Below, one piece after another: positions 8 to 57,225 of a DNA stretch of 64,000 bases. Origin of the DNA: an uncultured cyanobacterium (lineage in GTDB: Bacteria; Cyanobacteriota; Cyanobacteriia; Cyanobacteriales; CAWCAG01). Numbering within the stretch: position 1 is the first letter of the stretch; each line of letters begins with the position of its first letter. The DNA lies in the NCBI GenBank assembly GCA_963793425.1, contig CAWCAG010000005.1, forward strand, positions 448,001-512,000, in the 5' to 3' direction. The position numbers and the translations under genes were made by a program. Under the pieces are notes generated by a model. The model worked only from the letters and a program-made list of their open reading frames with translations, had not been told where the DNA came from and made no database searches.

Positions 8-1741
8 ATGGCAACAGTAAATCATATCTTTGTTTTAGACATCACCACTGTGCTAGGCTCATCAGCAGTAGGAGGTTTTATTGCCTATCATCTACGCCAG
101 CCTGTTTTATTAGGTTATCTGGTTTGTGGTTTGATAATTGGTCCATTTGGCTTGGGTTTAATTACTCAAATAGAAGAGATAAAATCCTTAGCTGAAATTG
201 GTGTTGCTTTTTTGCTTTTTGCTTTGGGAGTAGAGTTTTCCCTGGCTGAGTTAAAACGGGTTAAAGATATTGCCATCAAAGGTAGCCTCTTACAAATTGG
301 GCTGACTATTGCCCTAGTAGCATTGTTCACCACTATGTTGGGTTGGGTTCAAACTCCGGTAGAAGGAATTTTTATGGGGGCTGTATTATCTCTATCTTCT
401 ACCGCCGTTGTGCTGAAAACTTTGACCGAAAGAGGAGAAGTTAATACTATTCATGGTCAGGTAATGTTGGCAGTCCTAATTGCCCAAGATTTAGCTTTAG
501 GATTAATGTTGGCAGTATTACCAGCCCTCAATCAACCAGAGAATCTAATTCCTGCTTTAGTGGCTGCAATAATTAAAGTAGTATTGTTTTTTCTTAGTGC
601 GATCGCTGCTGGGTATTGGCTTATTCCTCGCATCATGACTACTGTTGCCAAAACTGAAAATAGTGAGTTATTTTTATTGACGGTAATTGCTTTATGTTTA
701 GGTGTAGCATTGATAACTGCTAGCTTAGGCTTATCCATTGAAATGGGTGCGTTTGTAGCTGGGCTAACTATCTCCGAAATTGATTATTCAGACCAAGCCT
801 TAGCAAAAATGATTCCCTTAAGAGATACTTTTGCTAGTTTATTTTTTGCCTCTATTGGTATGTTAATTAATCCGAATAGTCTCTGGGGAAATTTGGGCAT
901 AATCATTGGGTTTGTCACCCTGGTAATGTTAGGTAAAGCTAGCATTGTGTTTCCCATTATTTGGAAGTTTGGCTATTCTTTTAAAACTGCTGTAATTGCT
1001 AGTTTGGGTTTAAATCAAATTGGAGAATTTTCTTTTGTTTTAGCATTGTTGGGGGAAAGGCTTGGCTTTATTAATCAAGAACAATATGATCTTCTCATCG
1101 GTACAACAGCAATAACTCTGGTTTTAACTCCCATTGGCATGAAATTCTCTCCAGAAATCGCCCAAAAACTAGCAACCATCCCCATAATTGCTAATTATTT
1201 GGAAAGGCAACAACAAAATAGACCCATGTCCATACCTAAAACTATTTGCAATCATATAGTGGTAGCAGGTTACGGGAGAGTTGGTAGAGTTATTGTCAAG
1301 GTATTAAGCGATCGCGGTTATCCTCTATTAGTTATTGAAAATAGTGAGGCTGGAATTAGGCGTTTACGTCAAGAAGAAATCCCTTATATTTTTGGGGATG
1401 CTGATTCTGAGATGGTTTTGAGTAAATGTCATTTAGACCAGGCTAAAGCTTTAGCAATCGCCTTACCCGATCCTTCTAGTACCCGTATTTTGCTCATGCA
1501 AGCCCTAAAAATCAATTCTAAAATAGATATAGTTGCCCGTTCACATAGTGACAAAGAAATCGATTTCTTAACCAAAATAGGGGCAAATGAAGTAGTACAA
1601 CCTGAGTTTGAAGCAGCCTTAGAAATGGGTAGACAAATTCTTAGTACTCTAGGAGAAAATGAAGAAGAAGTAGGTTCAGTTTTGCAAACAATTCGCACAG
1701 ATCGTTATCTCAGCGTTAGAGATACTTCCCAAAAAGATTAA
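8..1741 (+). CDS. CPA2-family cation:proton antiporter with C-terminal TrkA-N/KTN domain (KefB/C-like)
   Basis: Many TM helices, LSLSSTAVV and GAFVAG motifs, C-terminal Rossmann VVAGYGRVG. Confidence 0.9.
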   Translation: MATVNHIFVLDITTVLGSSAVGGFIAYHLRQPVLLGYLVCGLIIGPFGLGLITQIEEIKSLAEIGVAFLLFALGVEFSLAELKRVKDIAIKGSLLQIGLTIALVALFTTMLGWVQTPVEGIFMGAVLSLSSTAVVLKTLTERGEVNTIHGQVMLAVLIAQDLALGLMLAVLPALNQPENLIPALVAAIIKVVLFFLSAIAAGYWLIPRIMTTVAKTENSELFLLTVIALCLGVALITASLGLSIEMGAFVAGLTISEIDYSDQALAKMIPLRDTFASLFFASIGMLINPNSLWGNLGIIIGFVTLVMLGKASIVFPIIWKFGYSFKTAVIASLGLNQIGEFSFVLALLGERLGFINQEQYDLLIGTTAITLVLTPIGMKFSPEIAQKLATIPIIANYLERQQQNRPMSIPKTICNHIVVAGYGRVGRVIVKVLSDRGYPLLVIENSEAGIRRLRQEEIPYIFGDADSEMVLSKCHLDQAKALAIALPDPSSTRILLMQALKINSKIDIVARSHSDKEIDFLTKIGANEVVQPEFEAALEMGRQILSTLGENEEEVGSVLQTIRTDRYLSVRDTSQKD

Positions 1742-6411: not shown

Positions 6412-8239
6412 TTAGAAACTGAAAGTTGTCCGTATTGCACCGATGAAGATATTGTCATTTTCCGAGTTGTGGCCTGGATCAATTAAATAAATTGCCCCAG
6501 GGGTAATGCTGATGTTGTCGGAAACTTGCCAGCGATAGAATAATTCAATGTGAGTGGTAGTTCCTGGTTGATCTCCTGGCCCCGCAAAAACGTTACCTTC
6601 GTTAATAAAGCTGGGGATGTTGCGTCCGATGGGTAAATCGCTACTGGTAATTTTAGGTGGCTGACCAATATATAAACCCGCTAAGTCCCCTTCGTTTAAA
6701 AGATCATAAACGTTGAGGTAGCCCATCCAGTTGAATGTTTCGATGCTTCCTGAACTACTCACAAAGTCGGAATTGGTGAAGCCAGCCCAACCACCAACGG
6801 TAAATTTCTCATTAATACGCCAGTCTACATTAGCACCAAAAGCATCGGTGTTAATTGGCGCTCTCAAAAGTCCTGTCCCAACATTAGGAGAAAGAATGGC
6901 TAATTGGTCGTCTCCTATGCCTGTACCTAAACGCCCAAAAGGAGAGTAGGCGTTTATGTATTGTAAGGAAAGATCAATATTTTCAGTGGGAGAAACTCCC
7001 AATTGCACGCCAGCAGAGGTTTCACCATTTTCCCCACCAAATAAACCTGTATTGGGATTGTTGCCAGTGCTAGCGGAGTAAACTGCTTGTAGATTAAACT
7101 TGTCGCTTATTTGCCAGTCTACACCAAGCCCGGCACTACCACTACCTATGTTGATGATGGGGTTGCGTTGGGCGAAGCGAGAAATTGAACCTTGCCCAGC
7201 ACTTTCGATACGGTTTACTCCCCGGAAAACGTTGACGGGGTTAACGGCGGTAGGGCCAAAAATTACAGCTAAGCGATCCGTAAGCAGATGACGGAAGTTG
7301 AGATCGCTAACAACAACGTTGTTGTTGCCAGTGTTGCCTTCATAAGCAAGACTAGTAAAGTTGGTTAAAGCTGGGGGAGTGGAAGTCGTACTACCGTTTC
7401 CGGCAACCAAACCTAATAAAAGAAGGCTACGAGGGTCAAATTGAGTGATTAAGCTGAGGTTGGTGGTGCTAATAAAATTAATGTTAGTATTTTGATCCTC
7501 TAAGGGGAAAATTAAACTGGCGGAAAGAGTTCTCTGTCCTACCTTGGACACCAAAAACGCTTTGACCAAAGAGTTTGGTGGTGGTGGAAAATTGAGTTGC
7601 TTCTATATCAATGAGGCGGGCTTCTACTGCGTCTACGTTGCCCCGCAAAACCGCAAGTTCGGTGGCAAATTCTTCGACTAATCTTTGATAGGTGTTGCCA
7701 TCGGAACCCTCGAAGCTTGGTAAGTTGGTTTCAAAGTATTCCATGCAACGACTCAAAGCCGCAGCAAATTCGTAGCGAGTGATGTTTCGTTGCCCCTTAA
7801 ATGTGCCATCAGGATAGCCAACAATACAGCCATATTTATCGACCATCTTTTGCACGGCTTCAAACCAGAAAGGATCGATGTCGCTTAGTTGGTTAACGCT
7901 GGTTACTTGTTCGAGGGGGATTTCTTCATTGTTATAAATGCGGATTTGGTCAAGAATTTCTTGTTCTTTAGCACCTTCAACTCCTGAGTCTTGGGGCAGA
8001 AATTCTGTTTCTACTGGTGCAATAGGCTCTGAGTTTAATTCAGGATCAACTAAATCTTGAACTAAAAACTGCGACTCTTGTTCTGATTCTAATGAGTCTT
8101 CCGGTAAGATTGCTGCTTCAGAAATATCTGCTGCCTGAACGGATTTGGCCCCCATTAGACCTAACACTGTTAATAACAGAACCGAGAAAGTATGCAGGGA
8201 AAAATAGGATTTCAACTTCATGGCATCTAAACTCCTCAA
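6412..8239 (-). CDS. SLH-domain outer-membrane porin (OprB/iron-uptake porin family), split by a +1 frameshift near 7505
   Basis: ORF 7484-8239 has QVTSVNQLSD, SLH YGCIVGYPDGTF..TRYEFAA and QFSTTTKL; ORF 6412-7569 ends in IRTTFSF; removing one base from the GGGG/AAAA run at 7504-7511 fuses them. Confidence 0.9.
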
Positions 8240-8443
8240 AACACCTAAGTTTTTATCTTATCCTGCATTTTGATCAAGTCTAGGGATTTTTAGATAAATG
8301 CAAAGTAATTTCCTGATAACTACGCAATTAATGTTTTTCTATAGGGGAAGTCTTTCTTTTACAAGGGTATATACGCAAAAAAATATTGCTGTTGATTTTG
8401 TTTTTTGTTTTGGGAACTTTAAGTTTAAAAACTCGTCTTTACT

Positions 8444-8824
8444 TTATTCTAAACCAATAATTTGCAATGATTTATCTAATACTTCATCAGGATCAAAAGG
8501 TTTGGTCATATATAAATCTGCTCCTACTTCTATGCCCTTTTGCTTGTCGAATTCCTGCCCTTTAGCGGTTAGCATGATGATGTAAATACCTTTTAATTGC
8601 AGTTCTTTTTTAACTGTTTTACAAACATCAAAACCATTCATTTTTGGCATCATCACATCTAAAAAAACTAACTGAGGAAGTTCTGTTTTAATCTTTTCTA
8701 AAGCTTCCTCTCCATTGCTAGCCATCAACAACTCAACACCTTCATCTTCTAATTCTTCTAAAGTTTGTTCGAGGAGTAATCTGATATGGGGTTCGTCATC
8801 GGCAATTAATATTTTCTGCTCCAT
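8444..8824 (-). CDS. Single-domain response regulator
   Basis: ADDE, LDVMMP, LTAKG, KPF. Confidence 0.93.
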   Translation of the reverse strand: MEQKILIADDEPHIRLLLEQTLEELEDEGVELLMASNGEEALEKIKTELPQLVFLDVMMPKMNGFDVCKTVKKELQLKGIYIIMLTAKGQEFDKQKGIEVGADLYMTKPFDPDEVLDKSLQIIGLE

Positions 8825-8848: not shown

Positions 8849-10282
8849 TCAGTATTTAACTTCAAATACTTCTATAGCATTTTTTTTACCTTTCACTTTA
8901 ACTATGCCAAAATTTTCAAAGTCAAAAGTATCTTTAGTTACATCATAAATGCTACGGCTAACTAAAATTTGTCCTCCTTTAGCTAAAGATTGCAACCGAG
9001 AAGCGATGTTAACTTCATCACCGATGGCTGTATAGTCCATATGTTTAGGAGAACCAATGTTACCTACTACTACCTTACCAGAGCTAATACCAATTCCTGT
9101 AGGAAAGTTCTTTCTGATCCAAACTTCGGGGATGGTTTGGATGCGTTTTTGCATATCAATGGCTGTGGCGATCGCTTTTTGTTCTGTGTTGAGAGTGCTA
9201 GAAGGAGCGCCAAAAAAGGCGACAATCATGTCCCCGACTAATTTGTTAACTGTACCTTGATGGTCAAAAATCACATCTACCATGTGGGTGAAATATTCAT
9301 TCAAATAAGCAACTATTCTTTCTGGGGCTAGTTCTTCACATTTGCCAGTAAAGTTTCTAATATCAGAAAATAAAATGGAGACATCTTTTTTATTAGGTTC
9401 GAGGCTAATTCCTTCTTTATCTGATAAAATAGTTTGCACAACTTGAGAAGTAACGTAACGCTCTAAATTATTTTTGATCCGCTCTTCTTTGAGCTTATTT
9501 TTATGCAAAAGAGCGTTTTCAATGGCAGTAGCAGCTTGAGAAGAAATAGCGGCAAGCAATTTTAAGTCTGCTGCTGTGTATTGAACATTTTGAGTGCTAC
9601 AAAGATTAATCGCCCCAATTGGTAAATCTTTAGCTTTTAAAGGAGCGCAAATTAAAGATGCTGTTTCGTGATGATAAGGCAGATAGCGAGAGTCTGCGAC
9701 AACATCGTTAACAATTTCTGCTTTCCCTGTTTTGGCTACATAACCGGCAATACCTTCTCCTAATTGGATATTAGTTTTCAGGAAAGATTCATCCCCCGCC
9801 GTGGCGACAATTTCTAGCTCTTGTTTTTTAGGGTTGAGCAACATAACTGAGCCACTTGTAGCTTTGATAATTGTCATTGCCTCGTTAAGTATCAATTTGG
9901 CAATTTCTTCAAGTTCTAAACTCGCAGAGAGTTTTTCTGAGAGTTTATAAATTAGATTTAGTTCTTTATATCTGTCTAAAGTTTCCCCCGCTAAAGCTTT
10001 TTTTTCTAGTTCTTGACGGGCGAAACAAGTAAGCAAGTTGGCTAAAAAGCTAATGTCTTGTTTACCGATTACCCAACCTAAAAGTTGTTCTTCAATGATA
10101 ACAGGATATTTATATAGAGAATATTTTAAATCTTCTCCCAAGATTAAATTACTTTCTGCATCTCTAATACTAACTGGAGTTGCTACTGTTTCTATAGTCT
10201 TGATTATAGTCTGCCGAACTTCTTTTTTTCCTAGCAGACGCTTAAGTTTTAAACTATTTACTTTACCTTGCCTGCTAATCAA
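8849..10282 (-). CDS. GAF-domain class III adenylate cyclase
   Basis: GAF domain; FSDIRNFT, NKLVGD, DYTAIGDEVNIASR (Lys/Thr ATP-specifying residues). Confidence 0.88.
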   Translation of the reverse strand: MISRQGKVNSLKLKRLLGKKEVRQTIIKTIETVATPVSIRDAESNLILGEDLKYSLYKYPVIIEEQLLGWVIGKQDISFLANLLTCFARQELEKKALAGETLDRYKELNLIYKLSEKLSASLELEEIAKLILNEAMTIIKATSGSVMLLNPKKQELEIVATAGDESFLKTNIQLGEGIAGYVAKTGKAEIVNDVVADSRYLPYHHETASLICAPLKAKDLPIGAINLCSTQNVQYTAADLKLLAAISSQAATAIENALLHKNKLKEERIKNNLERYVTSQVVQTILSDKEGISLEPNKKDVSILFSDIRNFTGKCEELAPERIVAYLNEYFTHMVDVIFDHQGTVNKLVGDMIVAFFGAPSSTLNTEQKAIATAIDMQKRIQTIPEVWIRKNFPTGIGISSGKVVVGNIGSPKHMDYTAIGDEVNIASRLQSLAKGGQILVSRSIYDVTKDTFDFENFGIVKVKGKKNAIEVFEVKY

Positions 10283-10372
10283 TTAGCCCCCTAATTTAAT
10301 AGTCACTATAAGAACCTCGTAAATTTAACCTGATTCATTGCTAAAGTATCATCCTCCTTGAGATAAGTTTTA

Positions 10373-13129
10373 CTAAAATTCAGGAGAAGATGAAGCAGAG
10401 TTGTTTTTATCTGCCAAGAAAATAAAAACAGTATTATTCAGTCCTTTTTCAAAACGCAAACTCTGTGCTAATTCAGAATTTTTTTCCTTAGTCATATAAG
10501 TATAGGGAGAGGTCATTTTTTCTTCTAGTTTTTCTTTGTTTAAAGTCTCCACCATTTTGTAACCTCGACCTTGCAATATTTCAGTGAGTATTTTAACTGT
10601 GTTTTGCTCTTTTTCAATAAATAAAACTTCTTTGTGGGTATTTTCCTGAGTTATAAGAAAACTGATTTCATCTAAGAGTTCTTCAGCATTAATTGGTTTA
10701 TTTAAGTAGCGTTCCACGCCAATTTTATACCCTCGTTCTTTCTTTTCTACAATAGAAAGAATAATAATGGGAATATCAAAAGATCGTGGGTCGTTTTTCA
10801 ATACTGCTGCTGCATCTAAACCATTCATTTGCGGCATCATCACATCCATAATAATCAAATCAGGTTTATTCTCTTTAACTTGATTAATTGCTTGCCAACC
10901 ATCTTCAGCTTGGCGAATTGTATAACCTTGTGGCTGTAGTTGTTGAGTAAGAAGTTCGCGAATACTAGAATCATCATCTACTACAAGAATTGATTTTGGA
11001 GTATGATTTTTATTGAGCAATTTTGGTTTAATGGGATAACTCAATTCAGTAACAAGGTTATTTGAATTTGATTTTTGAGCAGAAGCAGGTTTATGTAAAG
11101 GAATTGGTAGAGAGAAGCTGAAAGTACTACCTTGATTTAGTTCACTTTCCAACCAAATTTTACCGCTGTGATGTTCAACTATTTGTTTACAAATAGGCAA
11201 TCCTAAGCCTGTGCCTTGGGGTTTGTCTGTCAAAGTATCTCCTAGCTGTTGGAAGCGTTGAAATACTTTATCTTGATGCTCTAAAGCAATTCCTGTTCCT
11301 GTATCTATAATCTGAAAAATTATCTGTCCTTCTTCTTGATAAGCTTGGCAAGTTACAGAACCTTCCTCTGTGAATTTAATAGCGTTGGAAAGCAGATTAA
11401 TAAGAACTTGAATTAAGCGATCACGATCACCAATTATTTCTGGAAGTTCTGGATTGATTTTTTCAATGATTTGCAAACCCTTTTGTTCAAAAAGCGCTGA
11501 AGTCGAGGCGATCGCCCTTTGAGCAATATTCTGAATAGAGACAGTTTCTTCTTTCCACTCAACTTTACCTGCCTCCATTTTAGCTAAATCTAACACATCA
11601 TTAATTAAGGCAGTAAGTCTTTCTCCTTCGGTGACAATAATATTAAGATTATTCTTGACTTGTTTGATGGCTCTGGTGGTTTTATTCTCCTCAGTATTAG
11701 TAGCGGGGAAAATAACTTCTTCTAGCTTCTTTTTGATTAACTTAGTAAAACCTAATACAGAAGTAAGGGGAGTTCTTAATTCATGAGAAACGGTAGAAAT
11801 AAAGTCGGTTTTAAGTCTGTCTACTTCTGTTAAACGCTTGTTTTCTTTCTGGAGAAACTTGTATAAATCAACTATTTCCTCATTAGCTTCAGCAAGTTCT
11901 TCTGTACGCTTCTCTACCCTAATTTCTAACTCCTCATTTAGCCTTTTCAAAGCCGCTTCAGTTTCTTTTCGTTTAGTGATATTGCTCAAAAAAATTGATA
12001 ATCCTTCTTTGTGAGGATAGGCACGTACTTCTAACCATTGTTGAAGAGAAGCAAAGTACTGCTCAAAGGTAACAAGTTTACCCTTTTTAACTGCATTGTA
12101 ATACTTCTTTTGAAATGGTGGCTCTGATGCTTCTGGAAAGACTTGCCAGAAACTAAGGCTTGTTAAGGCGGCTGTTTCTTGAGATAAAAGCTGACTAGCT
12201 TGGGGATTAAGATAGGTGATATTCCAATGAGAGTCTAAAGCCAGAAAAGCATCAGTAATACTTTCTAAAATTTTGATGGTTTTACGATTTGCTCGAACAA
12301 GTTTATCTATTATAATGTAAGCCAAACAAGCAAAAATAGTTAAAGATAAAACATAAGCGATTAAACTATAAATATTAGTTGTTTCTATTGCTTTTTGATA
12401 ATAATTACTGTAAGTTTTTTCTAATTCTTCACTTAACTCTGCACTAGGAAGAGCCAGGATTTTTGCAGTAAGCCTATTAACTTTAGGCTTGTTGACAAGA
12501 ATAGCTTGACTTTGAGAAATTGCAGTAGCAATCAATTCATTTTCTTTCTCTGGGTAGCTATCTTTCAAACGGTCAAGTACTTCTAGCTGGTTGGCAATGT
12601 TGAGGTATTGTTTTTCATCTCCTTGGAAATTATTAACAACAATTTTGTAGAACAAATCATCAAGAAGTAACTGTAAAGGTTTACTTTGAATTGTGATCGG
12701 AGACTCTTCTAACTCAGTAATAATAGTTGGCAATTCTTCTAAAGAATCTCGAAGCAGAGCATTTTTGCTTTGAAAGTCTTTTACTAAAAGAGCCTTCTGT
12801 TGCATCACTTCTTCTCTTTCTCTTAAAATAGCTCTAAGTTCATCTTGTCCTTCAGCTTCGATAAAGCTAGGAACTTTGAGTAGCTTATTTTGTAGTTCTT
12901 GCTGTACTTGTAAACGCTTTTGAAAAGTCTGGTGGGAAGCTAACAGTTCGTACCTAGCTTTGAGAATATCTTGATTAAAGGTAGCATCTTTTTCTTTCTG
13001 GGCAATCAAAGCATCACGATAGCGATAATGTTCTCCAACATTGATAGCTCCACTCTTAGCAATAACTACGATAATTAATGCTACAGAACTTGTAGCAGTC
13101 AAAATGCTGAGTATTTTTGCAATTCTCAT
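10373..13129 (-). CDS. Hybrid sensor histidine kinase (TM, DAHL-like helical sensor, TM, PAS, HisKA, HATPase, REC)
   Basis: SHELRTPL, NLLSNAIKFT, DTGTGI, GTGLGL, REC MDVMMP; likely ATG start at 13129 just before the TM helix. Confidence 0.9.
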   Translation of the reverse strand: MRIAKILSILTATSSVALIIVVIAKSGAINVGEHYRYRDALIAQKEKDATFNQDILKARYELLASHQTFQKRLQVQQELQNKLLKVPSFIEAEGQDELRAILREREEVMQQKALLVKDFQSKNALLRDSLEELPTIITELEESPITIQSKPLQLLLDDLFYKIVVNNFQGDEKQYLNIANQLEVLDRLKDSYPEKENELIATAISQSQAILVNKPKVNRLTAKILALPSAELSEELEKTYSNYYQKAIETTNIYSLIAYVLSLTIFACLAYIIIDKLVRANRKTIKILESITDAFLALDSHWNITYLNPQASQLLSQETAALTSLSFWQVFPEASEPPFQKKYYNAVKKGKLVTFEQYFASLQQWLEVRAYPHKEGLSIFLSNITKRKETEAALKRLNEELEIRVEKRTEELAEANEEIVDLYKFLQKENKRLTEVDRLKTDFISTVSHELRTPLTSVLGFTKLIKKKLEEVIFPATNTEENKTTRAIKQVKNNLNIIVTEGERLTALINDVLDLAKMEAGKVEWKEETVSIQNIAQRAIASTSALFEQKGLQIIEKINPELPEIIGDRDRLIQVLINLLSNAIKFTEEGSVTCQAYQEEGQIIFQIIDTGTGIALEHQDKVFQRFQQLGDTLTDKPQGTGLGLPICKQIVEHHSGKIWLESELNQGSTFSFSLPIPLHKPASAQKSNSNNLVTELSYPIKPKLLNKNHTPKSILVVDDDSSIRELLTQQLQPQGYTIRQAEDGWQAINQVKENKPDLIIMDVMMPQMNGLDAAAVLKNDPRSFDIPIIILSIVEKKERGYKIGVERYLNKPINAEELLDEISFLITQENTHKEVLFIEKEQNTVKILTEILQGRGYKMVETLNKEKLEEKMTSPYTYMTKEKNSELAQSLRFEKGLNNTVFIFLADKNNSASSSPEF

Positions 13130-52454: not shown

Positions 52455-53027
52455 TCAAGGATACAAAGATAAATTCAAGCAAAAACCTGGCAAACATTCT
52501 TCACCCTGCAACTCCGTAGGTAAATTCCGGATTTCCACTGCCATACCACCGCGATAAATTTCCACTTGCTGTTGCTGAGGATTAATTAACCATCCTAGTT
52601 GAATTCCTGCCTCAAGATATTCTTGCATCTTAGCCCGCAGAGGTTCTAGGCGGTCAGTAGCAGAACGTAATTCAATCACAAAGTCTGGTGCGATAGGAGG
52701 AAACTTACGGCGTTGTTGCGGAGTGAGGGCTTCCCAACGCTCACGCCTTACCCAAGCAGCATCAGGGCTACGATCTGCACCATTAGGTAATTTGAAGATA
52801 GTTGAGGAGCTAAAAGTATAGCCTAAGCGGGTTTCTCGATTCCAGTTGCCTAGATCAATAATTAGTTCCGCTTCTTGATTGCCACTATCGCCACCAACAG
52901 GGGTCATAATAATTAATTCTTTTTGAGAAGTACGTTCAAACTGCAACTCGCGGTTACTTTGACAGATTTGATAAAACTGGTCGTCACTGAGGTGAACATC
53001 TTCTAGGTTTAGTGTTAGAGGAGTCAT
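52455..53027 (-). CDS. Uma2-family protein
   Basis: FSSST.F.LPNGADRSPD, PDFVIELRS, LGWLI. Confidence 0.92.
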   Translation of the reverse strand: MTPLTLNLEDVHLSDDQFYQICQSNRELQFERTSQKELIIMTPVGGDSGNQEAELIIDLGNWNRETRLGYTFSSSTIFKLPNGADRSPDAAWVRRERWEALTPQQRRKFPPIAPDFVIELRSATDRLEPLRAKMQEYLEAGIQLGWLINPQQQQVEIYRGGMAVEIRNLPTELQGEECLPGFCLNLSLYP

Positions 53028-53139
53028 GATTAATTCTCAGGGAATATCGATTTTGTCGTTTGTTAAAATTTTACCTAAAGCGTAATCTCTAGTTATTTTG
53101 TTTATTTATGGAACTTTTAAGCAAAATAATTTTAATTAT

Positions 53140-53287
53140 GGTGGGCAAAAGAAGATGGTTTTCAGATGCGAATATTTACTCTCAATTTTGTCCACCCTAC
53201 TTTAAAGACATCAATGTAACAATTGTAGGGTGGGAATTGCTAACGGTAATTTTGGGAAAACTCGGAGATTTAAAAGCAATGCCCACC
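53140..53287. repeat. Cluster of GTAG-type REP-like palindromes
   Basis: ggtgggcaaaa...ttttgtccaccctac and gtagggtgggaattgc...gcaatgcccacc. Confidence 0.7.
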
Positions 53288-53630
53288 AATTCCCATAAGC
53301 TCATTTTGGTTGTGGTGATAGATAGTTAGTGGAATCGCAAGATGACTTTGGCGGTGCGGGATATTTTTCTCCCTTAAGATGATATTATGTATGAGGTAGA
53401 AAAGGTGCGCTCTTAAAAAAGGGTTTGCAAAGGTGTTTTTAAGTCTTTTCAGGTTGTTAGAAAAAATCGCTTCAATAAAGATTTTTTTTGCTCTATTGGT
53501 GCTGGTTTTATGATATTATTTTTTTAACAAATATTTTTATAATGGGAATATTGACGTTTATCAGTAAGTGACAATATTCCCATTATGATAAATTTAATTT
53601 TATCACGAAATTGCACCTGAAAAAATTTTA

Positions 53631-53812
53631 TACGCTTCGCGTAAGGCAAAGGGCAAGAAGGCAAGAAGGGTAAAGGGCTAAAGAGTCCTGGGGGAAGAAC
53701 GGGCGAGACGAAAACCGATAATGCTGAGACGGGAGCCGGGAATGTTGAAGTAGCGATACGCAGAACGACAATGCCTCGGAGCGTAGTCCCAAGAACCACC
53801 GCGAAGCAAGCG
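53631..53812 (-). other. Putative DGR variable region plus downstream GAA-loop hairpin
   Basis: A-poor scaffold codons and NNY variable codons in [41 protein letters not shown] 35 nt after the stop. Confidence 0.72.
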
Positions 53813-55624
53813 ATCATGATTATCATTATCATTCTCATCAATTAACCAAGCACTACCATCAGTAGGAGCATCTTCATAACTATCATGCCATTGGTCATAG
53901 CACCATTCCCAGAACATTACCGTGCATATCATACAAACCAAAAGCATTAGGGGGAAAGCTGCCTACTTCCGTTGTTTCTTTCCTATATTGCCCTTCTGAT
54001 TCTGAGCCATAGGTACTGTTGCCAGAATAATTTGCTAACTCTGTCGTAATAGTTGCACCAAAATGAAAAGGTGTGGTTGTACCAGCACGACAAGCATATT
54101 CCCACTCTGCTTCGCTAGGTAAGCGATATTCTTCTCCTAACTTTTCTGAGAGTTTCTGACAAAATTCCACCGCCTCCAACCAAGAAACAGCTTCTACCGG
54201 GCGGTTTTCTCCTTCAAATTTAGCAGGATTATTACCCATAATCGCTTGCCATTGAGCTTGAGTAACCGCATACTTACCCAGATAGAAAGAGGGAACATTT
54301 ACTTCATGTTGTGGCTCTTCATTATCTCTTCTCCCTTTCTCATCACAAGGGGAACCCATAAGAAAACTTCCCCCAGGTATTGCCACCATTTCTAAGCTGA
54401 TTCCGTTTCCTAAATCTCCTCGAATATATTCTGCTTCTACTTACTTTGCGACTCATAATTTTGCCACTTTTCATCTACGGTAACGGTTTCGTTAGGCAAG
54501 AAAGTGTTGCGAATCTTTCTATTACTATTAACAGATAATCCTATAGCAACAGCAGTTAATGCACCCAATTTAGCCAAACCACCATAAAGAAATTGCTTCC
54601 TAGTAAAAGTTTGAGTTTGTGTTGCAGGTTGTTGAATCTTGGGTTGTTTGGGTTGAGAAACTTTAGCTGGTTGCTTTTTTACAGCTTGAGAAGGAGGTTT
54701 TTGATAAGTAGTAACTTGTTGCTGTTGAACATGATCAATCGCATCAACCGCAGCAATTAACTCCTCTGCCTTTTGATAACGCTGTTTCGGGAAATGCTCT
54801 AACATTTTGTCCAAAACTTCCCCTAACTCCTTCCTAACTCTCCCTCCCTTCTCTCGCCATAACCACCTCGCTTCATCAGCATCATACAATTCATCCTGGA
54901 TATCTCCAGGATTATCAAAATTGGGTAAACAACCAGTCAATAAACGGATAGAGGTAGCCCCCAAGCTATAAATATCACTGGCACAACGAGGTTTGCCAAT
55001 GACTTGTTCATAAGGTGCATAACCAGCCGTATAAAGAACTGTGCCAGAAATACTTACCGTTTGGAGATGGTGCTTAACTCCCCCAAAATCTATCAGAAAG
55101 ATTTTACCATCACTGCGACGACGCATAATGTTTTCTGGTCTAATATCTCGGTGTAATAATCCCTGTCGGTGAATGTATTGCAATACAGGTAAGAAATCTC
55201 GGAGAAACTCTAATAATTTCTGCTCATTAAAAGCCCCTTCCTTAAGCAACTCCTTAAGCAAATTCTCCCCTTCCACATAATCCTGCACCAAATAGATAGA
55301 ATTATCTTGAGCAAAATAAGCTTGCAAACGGGGAATTTGAGGATGATCTAAGTCGTAGAGACTTTTTCCTTCCTGTTCAAATAATTCCTTTGCTTTGCTT
55401 CCCTGTGCCTCGGCAATAAACTTTTTGATTACACAGAGACTATCAAAACGATCTTTATTCTTCGCTAAATAAGTCCTACCAAAAGCACCTTGACCCAAAA
55501 CTTTAACAACTTCATAACGTCCCCGAAATAAAGGTTGTTGCCATAAACTCAAACCACAACCTTGACAAAACTGATTACTATCGGGATTTTCGGGACTAGA
55601 ACAAGCCGGGTTGCAACAGTACAT
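53678..55624 (-). CDS. Ser/Thr protein kinase fused to an FGE-sulfatase (CLec-fold) domain, split by frameshifts near 54470, 54441 and 53913
   Basis: 4-Cys prefix, [20 protein letters not shown]; then [53 protein letters not shown]. Confidence 0.88.
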
Positions 55625-55755
55625 ATTGGTTAAACAATATCACTATCTCAGTTTACCTGATTTCACCGTAATTGCTCAAAAGATTGTAGTGGAATCGCTA
55701 AGTTTTTTTAAGGGTAAGTTTTTTGAGATTTGAAGCAGCAACATGATGTTTATTG

Positions 55756-55831
55756 AAAAGTTTGATATTAACTCTATTAAGAATACAGAGACAAATTTAA
55801 ACAAAAACCTGACAAACATTCTTCACCCTGC
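55756..55831 (-). repeat. 76-bp duplicate of the 3' end and downstream flank of the Uma2 gene (52434-52509)
   Basis: Manual alignment: 66/76 identical, ungapped. Confidence 0.85.
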
Positions 55832-55868
55832 TTAAAGAAAATTGCCAGGGCTTATTAACTATTGCTGC

Positions 55869-56486
55869 TCAAACTTCCCAAATTCGAGACAAATCTAAAA
55901 CAAAACCGGGTAATACTTCCTCACCAGATAACTCAACGGGATTCTCCAGCACTTCTACCTCTTTTCCCAGGCGATAAATTTCTACTTGTCGCTGCTGAGG
56001 ATTAAGTAACCAACCTAGCTTTGCACCGTTGTCAAGGTACTCTTTCATCTTCTGTTGTAAGGATTTGAGAGTATCTGAATTAGAACGCAATTCTACAACA
56101 AAATCAGGACAGATATTCGGAAAAGTACTTTTTTGTTCTAGAGTGAGAGCATCCCAACGTTGCCGACTAATCCAACAAGCATCAGGGCTACGAATCGCTC
56201 CATTCGGTAATGTGAAACCTGTAGAAGAATCAAAAGCTTTACCCAATTCTCTGTTTCCTTCATGCCAAAGATAAATTTGCCCGGTAAGGCTGTAATTGCG
56301 TTCTCCTGTTTCCCAACCTGTTGGCGGATTCACGGTTAATTCTCCTTGTGCAGTCCTTTCTATTCTTAGCTCCGGGTTAACTGCGGCAAGGGCAGCAAAT
56401 TGCTCTTGGGTAACGTGGAGTGCAATATCCCTTGGTAGTTCAATTGATAGGGTGCCGGTTTCGGGTTTAGTTGATATTTGTACCAT
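55869..56486 (-). CDS. Uma2-family protein (tandem duplicate)
   Basis: FDSSTGF.LPNGAIRSPD, CPDFVVELRS. Confidence 0.92.
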   Translation of the reverse strand: MVQISTKPETGTLSIELPRDIALHVTQEQFAALAAVNPELRIERTAQGELTVNPPTGWETGERNYSLTGQIYLWHEGNRELGKAFDSSTGFTLPNGAIRSPDACWISRQRWDALTLEQKSTFPNICPDFVVELRSNSDTLKSLQQKMKEYLDNGAKLGWLLNPQQRQVEIYRLGKEVEVLENPVELSGEEVLPGFVLDLSRIWEV

Positions 56487-56610: not shown

Positions 56611-57225
56611 TTAACCCCAAATTCGAGACAAATCTAAAACAAAACCGGGTAATACTTCCTCACCAGATAACTCAACGGGATTCTCCAGCACTTCTACCTC
56701 TTTTCCTGAACGATAAATTTCTACTTGTCGCTGCTGAGGATTAAGTAACCAACCTAGCTTTGCACCGTTGTCAAGGTACTCTTTCATCTTCTCTTGTAGG
56801 GATTTGAGAGTGTCTGAATTAGAACGCAATTCTACAACAAAATCAGGACAGATATGAGGAAAAGTACTTTTTTGTTCTAGAGTGAGAGCATCCCAACGTT
56901 GCCGACTAATCCAACAAGCATCAGGGCTACGAATTGCCCCATTCGGTAAGGTGAAACCTGTAGAAGAATCAAAAGCTTTACCCAATTCTTTATTTGCTTC
57001 GTGCCAATAATCGAGTTGCCCGGTAAGGCTGCGATTGCGTTCTCCACTTTGCCAACCTGTTGGCGGATTCACGATTAATTCTCCATGTAAAGTTCTTTCC
57101 ATTCTTAACTCCCGGTTAACTGCGGCTAGGGCAACAAATTGCTCTGGAGTGACGTGGAGTGTAATCGCCCTTGGCAGTTCAATTGATAGGGTTTCCGTTT
57201 CAGGTTTAGTTGATGCTTGTACCAT
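56611..57225 (-). CDS. Uma2-family protein (tandem duplicate)
   Basis: Near-identical to 55869-56486 in the 3' two-thirds. Confidence 0.92.
   Translation of the reverse strand: MVQASTKPETETLSIELPRAITLHVTPEQFVALAAVNRELRMERTLHGELIVNPPTGWQSGERNRSLTGQLDYWHEANKELGKAFDSSTGFTLPNGAIRSPDACWISRQRWDALTLEQKSTFPHICPDFVVELRSNSDTLKSLQEKMKEYLDNGAKLGWLLNPQQRQVEIYRSGKEVEVLENPVELSGEEVLPGFVLDLSRIWG

What the first reader, a model, noticed from the sequence alone, without database searches (positions are those of the whole stretch)
53631..53812. Orphan DGR target: kinase-CLec gene ending in a variable region with a GAA-loop hairpin, no RT nearby
Seen: the last ~45 codons of the kinase-FGE gene are GC-rich, unlike the AT-rich gene body. 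Scaffold codons are almost A-free (cgc ttg ctt cgc ggt ggt tct tgg; tgt cgt tct gcg; ggt ttt cgt ctc gcc cgt). The positions that read N in DGR templates all end in C or T (GAC TAC GCT, CAT, TAT, TAC TTC AAC ATT, TCC, CTC AGC ATT ATC). After the stop come a pyrimidine tract and TACGC-GAA-GCGTA. Known: DGRs mutate template adenines, so AAY codons become NNY; FGE-type CLec domains fused to kinases are typical cyanobacterial DGR targets; GRA-loop hairpins mark target sites. Inference: this is a remote target diversified in trans, a hypervariable receptor wired to a kinase. No RT, avd or template repeat was found in the window.
Basis: partly seen in the sequence, partly recalled or inferred. Interest (0 to 1): 0.82.

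Follow-up and report, generated by a model that had tools for sequence, protein, structure and literature searches.

The report
Orphan DGR variable region, receptor kinase
The tail of this cyanobacterial receptor-kinase gene is a real hypermutation cassette of the kind written by diversity-generating retroelements, but the genome's only such element could not have written it, so it is an orphaned member of a known class.

Summary
On the minus strand, 53678-55624 encodes a Ser/Thr kinase, one membrane helix and an FGE/C-type-lectin domain. The last 121 nt are A-poor (10.6% A against 30.4% in the gene body). All 12 template-N codons end in C or T. After the stop come a pyrimidine tract and the TACGC-GAA-GCGTA hairpin.

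This tail matches, part for part, the variable-region (VR) ends of cyanobacterial DGR targets. The genome does hold one complete DGR (avd, RT, template, two flanking targets) on another contig, C6. Its own VRs differ from its template almost only at adenines. The window VR differs from that template at 22 non-adenine sites, so that template did not write it. I found no matching template in the assembly, in 400 other genomes of the order, or in the public contig collections.

A same-genus remnant differs from the window VR at codon positions 1 and 2 of the N codons and never at position 3. This points to a second, now missing template. Metagenome contigs show the gene intact, so the three frameshifts in the window are probably assembly errors. 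They also hint at a second VR allele.

Orphan kinase-lectin paralogs are published for cyanobacteria, and this scan found similar ones before in Trichodesmium. It is a new member of a known kind.

The parts
53678..55624 (-). Whole gene: zinc-ribbon-like N-terminus, Hanks-type Ser/Thr kinase, one hydrophobic helix, FGE/C-type-lectin domain ending in the VR. It is split in this assembly into ORFs 54437-55624, 53895-54389 and 53678-53947.
   Evidence: ORFs. Pfam: Pkinase E 9e-38 (profile 1-255 of 263); FGE-sulfatase E 2.6e-41 (profile 5-186) and 1.7e-10 (profile 186-255). Without the three bases that the metagenome contigs lack, it reads as one 647-aa frame with no internal stop.
54530..54592 (-). 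Predicted membrane helix (residues 345-365 of the kinase ORF). It would put the kinase inside the cell and the lectin domain outside.
   Evidence: This is the most hydrophobic 19-residue window of the ORF, mean Kyte-Doolittle 1.59. The topology is inferred.
54468..54472 (-). First extra base (in an A run). It shifts the frame just after the helix.
   Evidence: One base is left out at 54468 (X2 9.36 of 9.36, X3 4.99 of 4.99, X1 6.76 of 21.9) or at 54472 (X1 15.1 of 21.9) in metagenome contigs. Alignment to the C7 paralog agrees.
54441..54441 (-). Second extra base.
   Evidence: Left out in X1 21.9 of 35.1, X2 9.36 of 9.36, X3 4.99 of 4.99.
53908..53912 (-). Third extra base, inside the conserved GNVWEW motif of the FGE domain.
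   Evidence: Left out at 53912 in X1 24.8 of 24.8, X2 7.29 of 7.29, X3 5.9 of 5.9. In X4 a base is left out at 53908 instead, 4.43 of 4.43.
53680..53800 (-). Variable region: 121 nt homologous to the template repeat and the two VRs of the DGR on contig C6.
53721..53788 (-). Mutable block, from the first adenine position of the first N codon to the second position of the last N codon.
   Evidence: Codon table. Contigs in X1 (depth 7.4) and X3 (3.49) join 53720 to 53789 and leave exactly this block unaligned (table 5).
53672..53689 (-). IMH-like end of the VR, including the stop codon. This 18-mer is shared exactly with both active VRs.
   Evidence: With up to 3 mismatches allowed, the 18-mer is found exactly at only three places in the 5.28-Mb genome: VR1, VR2 and here. 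The template differs from it (position 114 and beyond 121).
53644..53677 (-). Pyrimidine tract after the stop.
   Evidence: Y = 0.90 over 30 nt. The same kind of tract follows 25 of 27 VR-like ends from other genomes. In this genome the tract occurs only at the three VR ends.
53631..53643 (-). Hairpin TACGC-GAA-GCGTA, followed by TAAAATTTTTT (to about 53620).
   Evidence: Equivalent GC hairpins lie 29-63 nt after the stop in 17 of 27 VR-like ends from other genomes, with loops GAA x6 and GCA x6.

Best explanation
This is a genuine DGR-written variable region at the 3' end of a receptor-type Ser/Thr kinase (kinase, membrane helix, FGE/C-type-lectin sensor). It belongs to the cyanobacterial family of DGR targets. 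It keeps the whole target-side module: A-poor scaffold, NNY codons, an IMH-like end spanning the stop, a pyrimidine tract and a GNA-loop GC hairpin. It was written from an AAY-rich template of a second lineage, not from the template of the one DGR in this genome (contig C6). That second template is not in the assembly. In this genome the cassette is therefore orphaned and most likely frozen: a lectin tip that was once randomised and is now fixed on a kinase. Shown: the homology, the flank module, the mismatch to the resident template, and the absence of another template, avd or DGR RT. Inferred: the lost template, the membrane topology, and ligand sensing by the lectin tip that controls the kinase.
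For: (1) The VR aligns with VR1, VR2 and the template of a complete DGR on C6 (target 7150-8814, avd 8935-9282, RT 9279-10337, template about 10401-10521, target 10652-11524). Avd hits NF033474 at 131.5 bits, cut-off 80. (2) That DGR is a working reference. Its VRs differ from its template at 17 adenine sites and at 0 or 1 other sites in 113 nt. Across 8 cognate pairs the non-A differences are 0,1,0,0,1,0,0,5. (3) The window VR differs from the resident template at 17 adenine sites and 21 other sites in 113 nt (22 in 121), and from five other templates at 17-31 non-A sites. (4) An adenine-tolerant scan of the whole genome finds no template. The best real matches are the C7 paralog (117 of 153) and the C6 template (114 of 153). 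There is one avd, one template 3' RNA element and one DGR-type RT. The other six RT matches are three RT-Cas1 fusions, a retron type, a Drt4/5-like and an AbiA. (5) Against a same-genus remnant (G001:C11), the 12 N codons differ at codon positions 1/2/3 by 7/7/0. Their third positions are identical 12 of 12 and all pyrimidine. The resident template has a different third base at 5 of the 12. (6) The flank module is conserved and specific to VR ends. (7) The literature describes dispersed kinase-CLec paralogs with remnant TR-VR homology and no nearby RT (PMC7517822, section 6 read whole).
Against: A frozen state is not shown. Metagenome contigs from one study carry a second form that joins 53720 to 53789, leaving exactly the mutable block unaligned (X1 depth 7.4, X3 3.49). 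Cover of the window's own VR form drops in X3 (1.73 against 20.6 in the flank). This fits recent rewriting. The gene is intact in those contigs, so it is probably under selection. The assembly is 98.6% complete, not closed, and a DGR on an unbinned plasmid would be missed. The lost template is inferred from one remnant only.
Confidence: 0.6

Rival explanations
1. It is an active remote target. A second DGR, or a lone template served by the C6 RT and Avd, exists in the organism or its population but is missing from the assembly. It still rewrites this VR in trans.
For: A second allele form in metagenome contigs has its unaligned block at exactly 53721-53788. The frame is intact in all runs that cover the three sites. 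The target-side module is complete, including a hairpin that the resident cassette's own VRs lack. PMC10907252 (passages) reports diversified targets whose VRs have no perfect template match in the genome.
Against: There is no template, second avd, second DGR RT or second template 3' element in a 98.6%-complete assembly. The 29-nt scaffold with up to 3 mismatches is found in 1 of 401 genomes of the order, the window's own. It has 0 exact matches in genome contigs and in metagenome contigs. The joints come from contigs laid at 88% likeness with short sides (30 and 44 nt); the tool itself warns that such joints can come from other organisms. The letters between the two sides are not known, so a deletion is not excluded.
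Confidence: 0.3
2. It is a remote target of the resident DGR on contig C6.
For: It is in the same genome. The 18-nt IMH-like end is identical to VR1 and VR2. Identity to the template is about two thirds, above the 50% threshold used for 'remote targets' in PMC7517822.
Against: There are 22 non-adenine differences in 121 nt. Twelve of them fall in the 18 nt just upstream of the shared end (positions 94-111). Homing from that template would have overwritten them. Cognate pairs show 0-1 such differences, one pair 5.
Confidence: 0.03
3. It is not DGR-related: an ordinary FGE-domain tail whose composition and hairpin are coincidence, with the hairpin acting only as a terminator.
For: The hairpin followed by a T run matches a terminator pattern, and its fold is not better than shuffles. 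FGE domains end in RGGSW...GFR whether or not a DGR targets them (Pfam match).
Against: There is nucleotide-level homology to two template-matched VRs, including 18 identical nt across the stop and a tract found nowhere else in the genome. All 12 N codons end in a pyrimidine, and the differences from the remnant are 7/7/0 by codon position. Only 2 of 12,774 windows are as A-poor.
Confidence: 0.02

Closest known systems
Remote variable proteins and VP paralogs of cyanobacterial DGRs (Vallota-Eastman et al. 2020, PMC7517822; e.g. [quoted passage not shown]
   Same: An N-terminal Ser/Thr kinase is grafted to a C-terminal CLec/FGE domain with the VR at the 3' end. The gene is dispersed away from the DGR. 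Identity to the template is partial (about 67% here, above that paper's 50% threshold).
   Different: Here the mismatch to the resident template is measured site by site (22 non-A differences), and a second, missing template lineage is inferred from a same-genus remnant. I did not see the paper's supplementary tables, so I cannot say whether this organism or gene is listed there.
Clade 5E cyanobacterial DGRs that diversify sensors of MoxR-vWA (VMAP-type) conflict systems (Dore et al. 2024, PMC10907252, passages)
   Same: The resident C6 DGR fits this description. It has a caspase plus iSTAND gene, a MoxR-like AAA gene, a vWA gene, a long CLec target, avd, RT, template and a short CLec target. 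That paper also uses a perfect non-adenine match as the test for trans-diversification, and reports diversified targets without a matching template.
   Different: The window gene is a kinase receptor outside any such cassette. It fails the perfect-match test against the resident template. I did not place the RT in a tree, so the clade assignment is by context only.
Bordetella phage BPP-1 target site: IMH plus downstream GC hairpin/cruciform (Guo et al. 2011, PMC3240598, passages)
   Same: A GC-stem hairpin with a purine-rich loop lies a short way downstream of the VR. It is absent next to the template.
   Different: BPP-1-type elements have 7-10-bp stems and 4-nt GRNA loops 4-34 bp from the VR. 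Here the stem is 5 bp with a 3-nt GAA loop, 34 nt after the stop, and is preceded by a conserved pyrimidine tract that the passages I read do not mention. Function is untested. The two template-matched VRs of this genome lack the hairpin.
Orphan kinase-CLec DGR targets noted earlier by this scan in Trichodesmium (e1-3132593, e1-3131680)
   Same: A kinase-FGE/CLec gene carries DGR scars that no known template of its genome could have written.
   Different: They are in a different genome and lineage. Those notes were not re-tested here.

Membership tests
DGR variable region / target gene (strict sense) | VR at the 3' end of a C-type-lectin-fold (FGE-type) domain | tested here: met
   FGE-sulfatase matches cover profile positions 5-255 over the two fragments. 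The VR is the last 121 nt.
DGR variable region / target gene (strict sense) | A template repeat in the same genome that matches the VR at all or nearly all non-adenine positions | tested here: not met
   The resident template has 21 non-A differences in 113 nt (22 in 121), against 0-1 (one pair 5) in 8 cognate pairs. The adenine-tolerant whole-genome scan finds none.
DGR variable region / target gene (strict sense) | DGR-type RT and accessory protein (Avd) in the genome | tested here: met
   There is one 352-aa RT next to an Avd (NF033474, 131.5 bits, cut-off 80) on contig C6. There is no second avd.
DGR variable region / target gene (strict sense) | IMH-like constant 3' end that differs from the template's end, plus a downstream inverted repeat | tested here: met
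   An 18-mer is identical to VR1 and VR2 and differs from the template. The hairpin is at 53643-53631.
DGR variable region / target gene (strict sense) | Variation confined to template-adenine positions among alleles or relatives | tested here: inconclusive
   Against the same-genus remnant the N codons differ 7/7/0 by codon position, but scaffold codons also differ 4/2/5. Metagenome contigs skip exactly 53721-53788, but the letters in between are unknown.
'Remote variable protein' as defined in PMC7517822 | CLec gene outside the cassette whose putative VR is at least 50% identical in nucleotides to the DGR's TR/VP | tested here: met
   It is about 67% identical to the template over 121 nt and 70-71% identical to VR1 and VR2. 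The definition is quoted.
Hanks-type Ser/Thr protein kinase | Full kinase domain with G-loop, VIK lysine, HRD catalytic loop and DFG | tested here: met
   Pkinase E 9e-38, profile 1-255 of 263. GQGAFG 44-49, VIKKF 65-69, HRDIRPEN 158-165, DFG 179-181. The catalytic loop has Arg where the C7 paralog has Lys. Activity was not tested.
Formylglycine-generating enzyme (catalytic FGE) | Catalytic cysteine pair and sulfatase-maturing activity | not tested
   Only the Pfam domain match was made. In DGR targets the fold serves as a variable binding domain (PMC7517822), so I do not file it as an enzyme.

The most novel reading that the evidence does not exclude
The cassette is still being rewritten in the natural population by a template that travels separately from the chromosome (a plasmid-borne or strain-variable DGR not in the assembly). 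In this reading the conserved flank, meaning the IMH-like end, the pyrimidine tract and the C-GNA-G triloop hairpin, is the address label that makes any CLec gene targetable in cyanobacteria. This orphan keeps the full label, while the resident cassette's own two VRs have lost the hairpin.
Probability: 0.25. Interest if true: 0.6.

Novelty: new member of a known kind. Interest (0 to 1): 0.35.

Why it matters
Dispersed kinase-lectin paralogs are thought to be how cyanobacteria turn DGR-randomised binding tips into fixed signalling receptors. This locus is a clean example with measurable history. It has a working DGR in the same genome as an internal control. Its VR cannot have been written by that DGR. 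A sister remnant reveals the lost template's codon pattern. There are hints of allelic variation in nature. It also brings out a conserved target-side flank (pyrimidine tract plus GNA-loop hairpin) that could be tested as the recognition signal for trans-diversification. I found no description of this flank in the passages and listings I saw.

Tried and rejected
(a) Cognate template in public data. The 29-nt scaffold string had 0 exact matches in genome contigs and 0 in metagenome contigs. With up to 3 mismatches it matched 1 of 401 genomes of the order, the window's own.

(b) Close alleles in JGI metagenomes. The best of 78 loci kept (610 relatives found) is 71% identical in protein. None of the 15 VR-like ends found in them shares the window's scaffold.

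(c) Ortholog in the same genus. There is none at the locus. The left flank maps to G001:C9 and the right flank to G001:C3. The 81-nt match at G001:C5 is another gene's 5' end with no synteny.

(d) RNA evidence. No RNA holder was listed for the stretch, so nothing can be said about expression.

(e) Parts of the gene without cover in run X4 (54136-54495) are not interpreted.

(f) Hairpin stability. A 101-nt DNA fold scores z = -0.15, so I make no energy argument.

(g) The idea that the assembly is riddled with frameshifts. Of 18 neighbouring ORFs (40-63 kb) scanned, 15 matched a Pfam family, nearly all of them from end to end of the profile, and 3 matched none. The three extra bases are therefore local to this paralogous gene.

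(h) Print search for the pyrimidine tract. One search's ten listed papers have no DGR term. In one search, 22 papers hold both 'diversity-generating retroelement' and 'pyrimidine'. I saw the listing of 10 and read none of them, and no listed title concerns VR flanks. This is weak evidence that the tract is undescribed. Wu et al. 2018 catalogue inverted repeats in a supplementary table that I did not see.

(i) Viral contigs were not scanned.

Full report
WHAT IS THERE

The finding lies on the minus strand. ORF listing and Pfam show three collinear pieces:
- 54437-55624: 395 aa, Pkinase E 9e-38, profile 1-255 of 263.
- 53895-54389: FGE-sulfatase E 2.6e-41, profile 5-186.
- 53678-53947: FGE-sulfatase E 1.7e-10, profile 186-255.

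Alignment with an in-genome paralog on contig C7 places three single extra bases in the window copy. Neighbouring genes look sound. Of 18 ORFs between 40 and 63 kb that I scanned, 15 matched a Pfam family, nearly all of them from end to end of the profile, among them PsaF, chorismate synthase, NAD kinase and TsaD; 3 matched none. The organism is a cyanobacterium, and the damage is local to this gene.

THE FRAMESHIFTS ARE PROBABLY NOT BIOLOGICAL

Four sediment-metagenome runs of one study hold the stretch as contigs. Laid on 53560-55700, those contigs lack a base at each of the three sites:
- At 53912: X1 24.8 of 24.8, X2 7.29 of 7.29, X3 5.9 of 5.9. In X4 the missing base is at 53908 instead, 4.43 of 4.43.
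- At 54441: X1 21.9 of 35.1, X2 9.36 of 9.36, X3 4.99 of 4.99.
- At 54468: X2 9.36 of 9.36, X3 4.99 of 4.99, X1 6.76 of 21.9. At 54472: X1 15.1 of 21.9.

Dropping those three bases gives one 647-aa frame with no internal stop. The runs may include the sample the genome was assembled from, so this is not independent proof. The simplest reading is an intact gene with assembly errors in a paralogous region.

The protein has the G-loop, VIK, HRD (as HRDIRPEN) and DFG motifs. It has one strongly hydrophobic stretch at residues 345-365. A receptor layout, with the kinase inside the cell and the lectin domain outside, is inferred from this.

The last 44 codons have A 10.6% and G+C 56.8%, against 30.4% and 40.5% for the rest of the gene. 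Only 2 of 12,774 sliding windows of the 64-kb window are as A-poor. The 12 codons that align with AAY codons of a DGR template all end in C or T; the background is about half (211 of 395 and 81 of 164). The stop is followed by a tract that is 90% pyrimidine over 30 nt. The hairpin TACGC-GAA-GCGTA lies 34 nt after the stop, followed by an A/T run.

THE GENOME DOES HAVE A DGR

An RVT_1 search of the whole assembly (5.28 Mb, 9 contigs, 98.6% complete) gives seven matches. NCBIfam sorts them as three RT-Cas1 fusions, one retron type, one Drt4/5-like, one AbiA, and one 352-aa RT on the 83-kb contig C6. That last RT sits directly after an Avd gene (NF033474, 131.5 bits, cut-off 80).

The C6 locus reads, in order:
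- a caspase plus iSTAND gene;
- a MoxR-like AAA gene;
- a vWA gene;
- a 554-aa FGE target, 7150-8814;
- avd, 8935-9282;
- RT, 9279-10337;
- an AAY-rich template at about 10401-10521;
- a 290-aa FGE target, 10652-11524.

This is the layout that Dore et al. 2024 describe for cyanobacterial DGRs (PMC10907252, passages). Both flanking VRs differ from the template at 17 adenine sites and at 0 or 1 other sites in 113 nt. The same-genus genome G001 has the orthologous DGR, with an RT 96% identical. Its VRs have been rewritten differently. The element is therefore a valid internal control.

THE WINDOW VR IS HOMOLOGOUS TO THOSE VRs BUT WAS NOT WRITTEN BY THAT TEMPLATE

The whole-genome DNA search with the VR hits VR1 and VR2 (70-71% identity) and the C7 paralog. 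Against the resident template the window VR differs at 17 adenine sites and also at 21 other sites in 113 nt, or 22 in 121. Twelve of these fall in the 18 nt at positions 94-111. Eight cognate pairs from five genomes show 0,1,0,0,1,0,0,5 such differences. The window VR shows 17-31 against each of six templates in hand.

A scan of both strands of the genome that forgives any mismatch where the genome has A finds no template. The best real matches are the C7 paralog at 117 of 153 and the C6 template at 114 of 153; higher scorers are A-rich junk. There is no second avd and no second copy of the structured 3' element that follows the template.

Outside the genome the result is the same:
- The 29-nt scaffold has no exact match in genome contigs or metagenome contigs.
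- With up to 3 mismatches it occurs in 1 of 401 genomes of the order, the window's own.
- The nearest metagenome relatives reach 71% protein identity and have different scaffolds.

EVIDENCE THAT A DIFFERENT TEMPLATE ONCE WROTE IT

G001 carries, at a non-syntenic place (C11:187178-187382), a frameshifted C-terminal remnant 77-78% identical to the window VR. It shares the window's unusual scaffold.

Between the two sequences, the 12 N codons differ at codon positions 1/2/3 by 7/7/0. Their third positions are identical in 12 of 12. That pattern is what adenine mutagenesis of one shared AAY template produces. It is the reverse of ordinary divergence. The 19 scaffold codons also differ (4/2/5), so the two are not recent copies. 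The resident template has a different third base at 5 of those 12 codons. I therefore infer a second template lineage in the genus that is now missing. This rests on a single comparison.

THE FLANK IS THE CONSERVED TARGET-SIDE MODULE

A search of 401 genomes of the order with the VR finds matches in 170. I extracted the loci returned. Of 27 VR-like ends from other genomes with an in-frame stop:
- 25 have at least 77% pyrimidine in the 30 nt after the stop;
- 17 have a GC hairpin 29-63 nt after the stop, with loops GAA x6, GCA x6, TGC x2, TTC, GTA and GTCA;
- two more show one by eye where the script picked a later hairpin;
- 8 have none.

These loci include close relatives and are not independent. 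Template-like copies instead carry a different conserved 3' flank; one of them (L058, at 1818) has a VR-type flank.

In the window's own genome, the 18-mer across the stop occurs exactly only at VR1, VR2 and the window VR. The tract occurs only at those three ends. VR1 and VR2 lack the hairpin and the window keeps it.

Guo et al. 2011 showed for phage BPP-1 that a GC hairpin with a GRNA loop downstream of the IMH is needed for efficient homing (PMC3240598, passages). Wu et al. 2018 found such repeats in 127 of 372 DGRs and discussed terminators as an alternative (PMC5758913, passages). The hairpin here also fits a terminator pattern. Both roles are possible and neither was tested. That C-GNA-G triloops are unusually stable DNA mini-hairpins is recalled, not taken from any call.

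IS IT STILL BEING REWRITTEN?

Contigs identical to the window VR exist in three runs: 53692-53864 in X1 and X2, and 53677-53813 in X4, each with 0 differences. In X1 (depth 7.4) and X3 (3.49) another contig joins 53720 to 53789 and carries a 6-nt deletion at 53829.

The skipped block, 53721-53788, runs exactly from the first adenine position of the first N codon to the second position of the last N codon. In X3 the window's own form falls to depth 1.73 in 53704-53775, against 20.6 in the flank.

The flank on which that contig lies includes the scaffold that is unique among the 401 genomes. It is therefore probably an allele of this gene and not a stray paralog.

There are caveats:
- These are contigs, not reads.
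- They were laid at 88% likeness, with short sides of 30 and 44 nt.
- The letters between the two sides are not known.
- All runs come from one study.

I treat this as a hint, not a demonstration.

VERDICT

The claim of present trans-diversification is not supported by the one DGR in the genome. The cassette is an orphan, written by a template that is no longer in the assembly.

Dispersed kinase-CLec paralogs with remnant template homology are described for cyanobacteria (PMC7517822, section 6 read whole; passages). By that paper's 50% identity threshold this gene would be listed as a remote target. By the non-adenine-match test of PMC10907252 it would not. This scan noted similar orphans in Trichodesmium (e1-3132593, e1-3131680; not re-tested here).

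The gene sits at a synteny break relative to the same-genus genome: the left block maps to G001:C9 and the right block to G001:C3. This fits a dispersed accessory gene.

It is a new member of a known kind. Two modest points of interest remain: the inferred lost template with possible ongoing variation, and the conserved tract-plus-hairpin flank.

I did not see the supplementary tables of the papers cited. They may list related genomes or flank repeats.

Noticed in passing
G000 contig C6 3552-11524 (locus L018): A complete DGR in a conflict-system setting: caspase plus iSTAND, MoxR-like AAA, vWA, long FGE target, avd, RT, template, short FGE target. Both of its VRs run from the pyrimidine tract straight into the A/T run and lack the GC hairpin that most relatives, and the orphan in the window, have.
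   Followed up: partly
L075 (G001:C1:142177-146232), template at 2623, VRs at 913 and 3624: In the same-genus genome the orthologous template has lost adenines in its 3' half (21 A in 113 nt against 29). Both VRs carry the same de-adenylated bases there. It looks as if VR-type sequence had been copied back into the template, shrinking the mutable span.
   Followed up: no
L045 (G001:C11:185678-188852), around 1500-1650 minus strand: The frameshifted remnant related to the window VR has a tandem duplication of about 30 nt that covers the IMH-like end and the start of the pyrimidine tract. This may be a scar of faulty homing.
   Followed up: no
L019 5657-8000 (G000:C7:15656-17999): A paralog of the window gene (76-81% DNA identity) lacks the first 64 positions of the kinase profile and the membrane helix. 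It starts right after a small two-gene pair that looks like a toxin-antitoxin module with an XRE-type antitoxin. Its VR is also unmatched to the resident template (18 non-A differences), and 2 of its 12 N codons no longer end in a pyrimidine.
   Followed up: partly
window 53542-53583: A 12-bp inverted repeat (arms separated by 18 nt) lies in the AT-rich spacer downstream of the gene. Metagenome contigs of all four runs diverge from the window at 53573 and 53610, as if this were a small repeated or mobile element.
   Followed up: no
window 52455-53027, 55869-56486, 56611-57225: Three Uma2-family (putative restriction endonuclease-like) genes flank the kinase gene, two of them in tandem. The stretch 53122-55859 between them has no counterpart in the same-genus genome, where the two flanks lie on different contigs.
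   Followed up: partly
G000 C6:51946-52566, C2:3927-4547, C8:30399-31019: The genome has three RT-Cas1 fusion genes (656-669 aa) on three small contigs. It also has a retron-type RT (C5:1157880), a Drt4/5-like RT (C9:373253) and an AbiA (C9:950149).
   Followed up: no
window 55130-55153: The kinase catalytic loop reads HRDIRPEN, while the C7 paralog has HRDIKPEN. An Arg at this place is unusual for Ser/Thr kinases (recalled, not tested).
   Followed up: no
window 53645, 53647: Two base differences just upstream of the hairpin are carried by metagenome contigs (X1 27.2 of 27.2, X3 9 of 13.7, X4 7.45 of 16.1). The flank is therefore polymorphic too.
   Followed up: no
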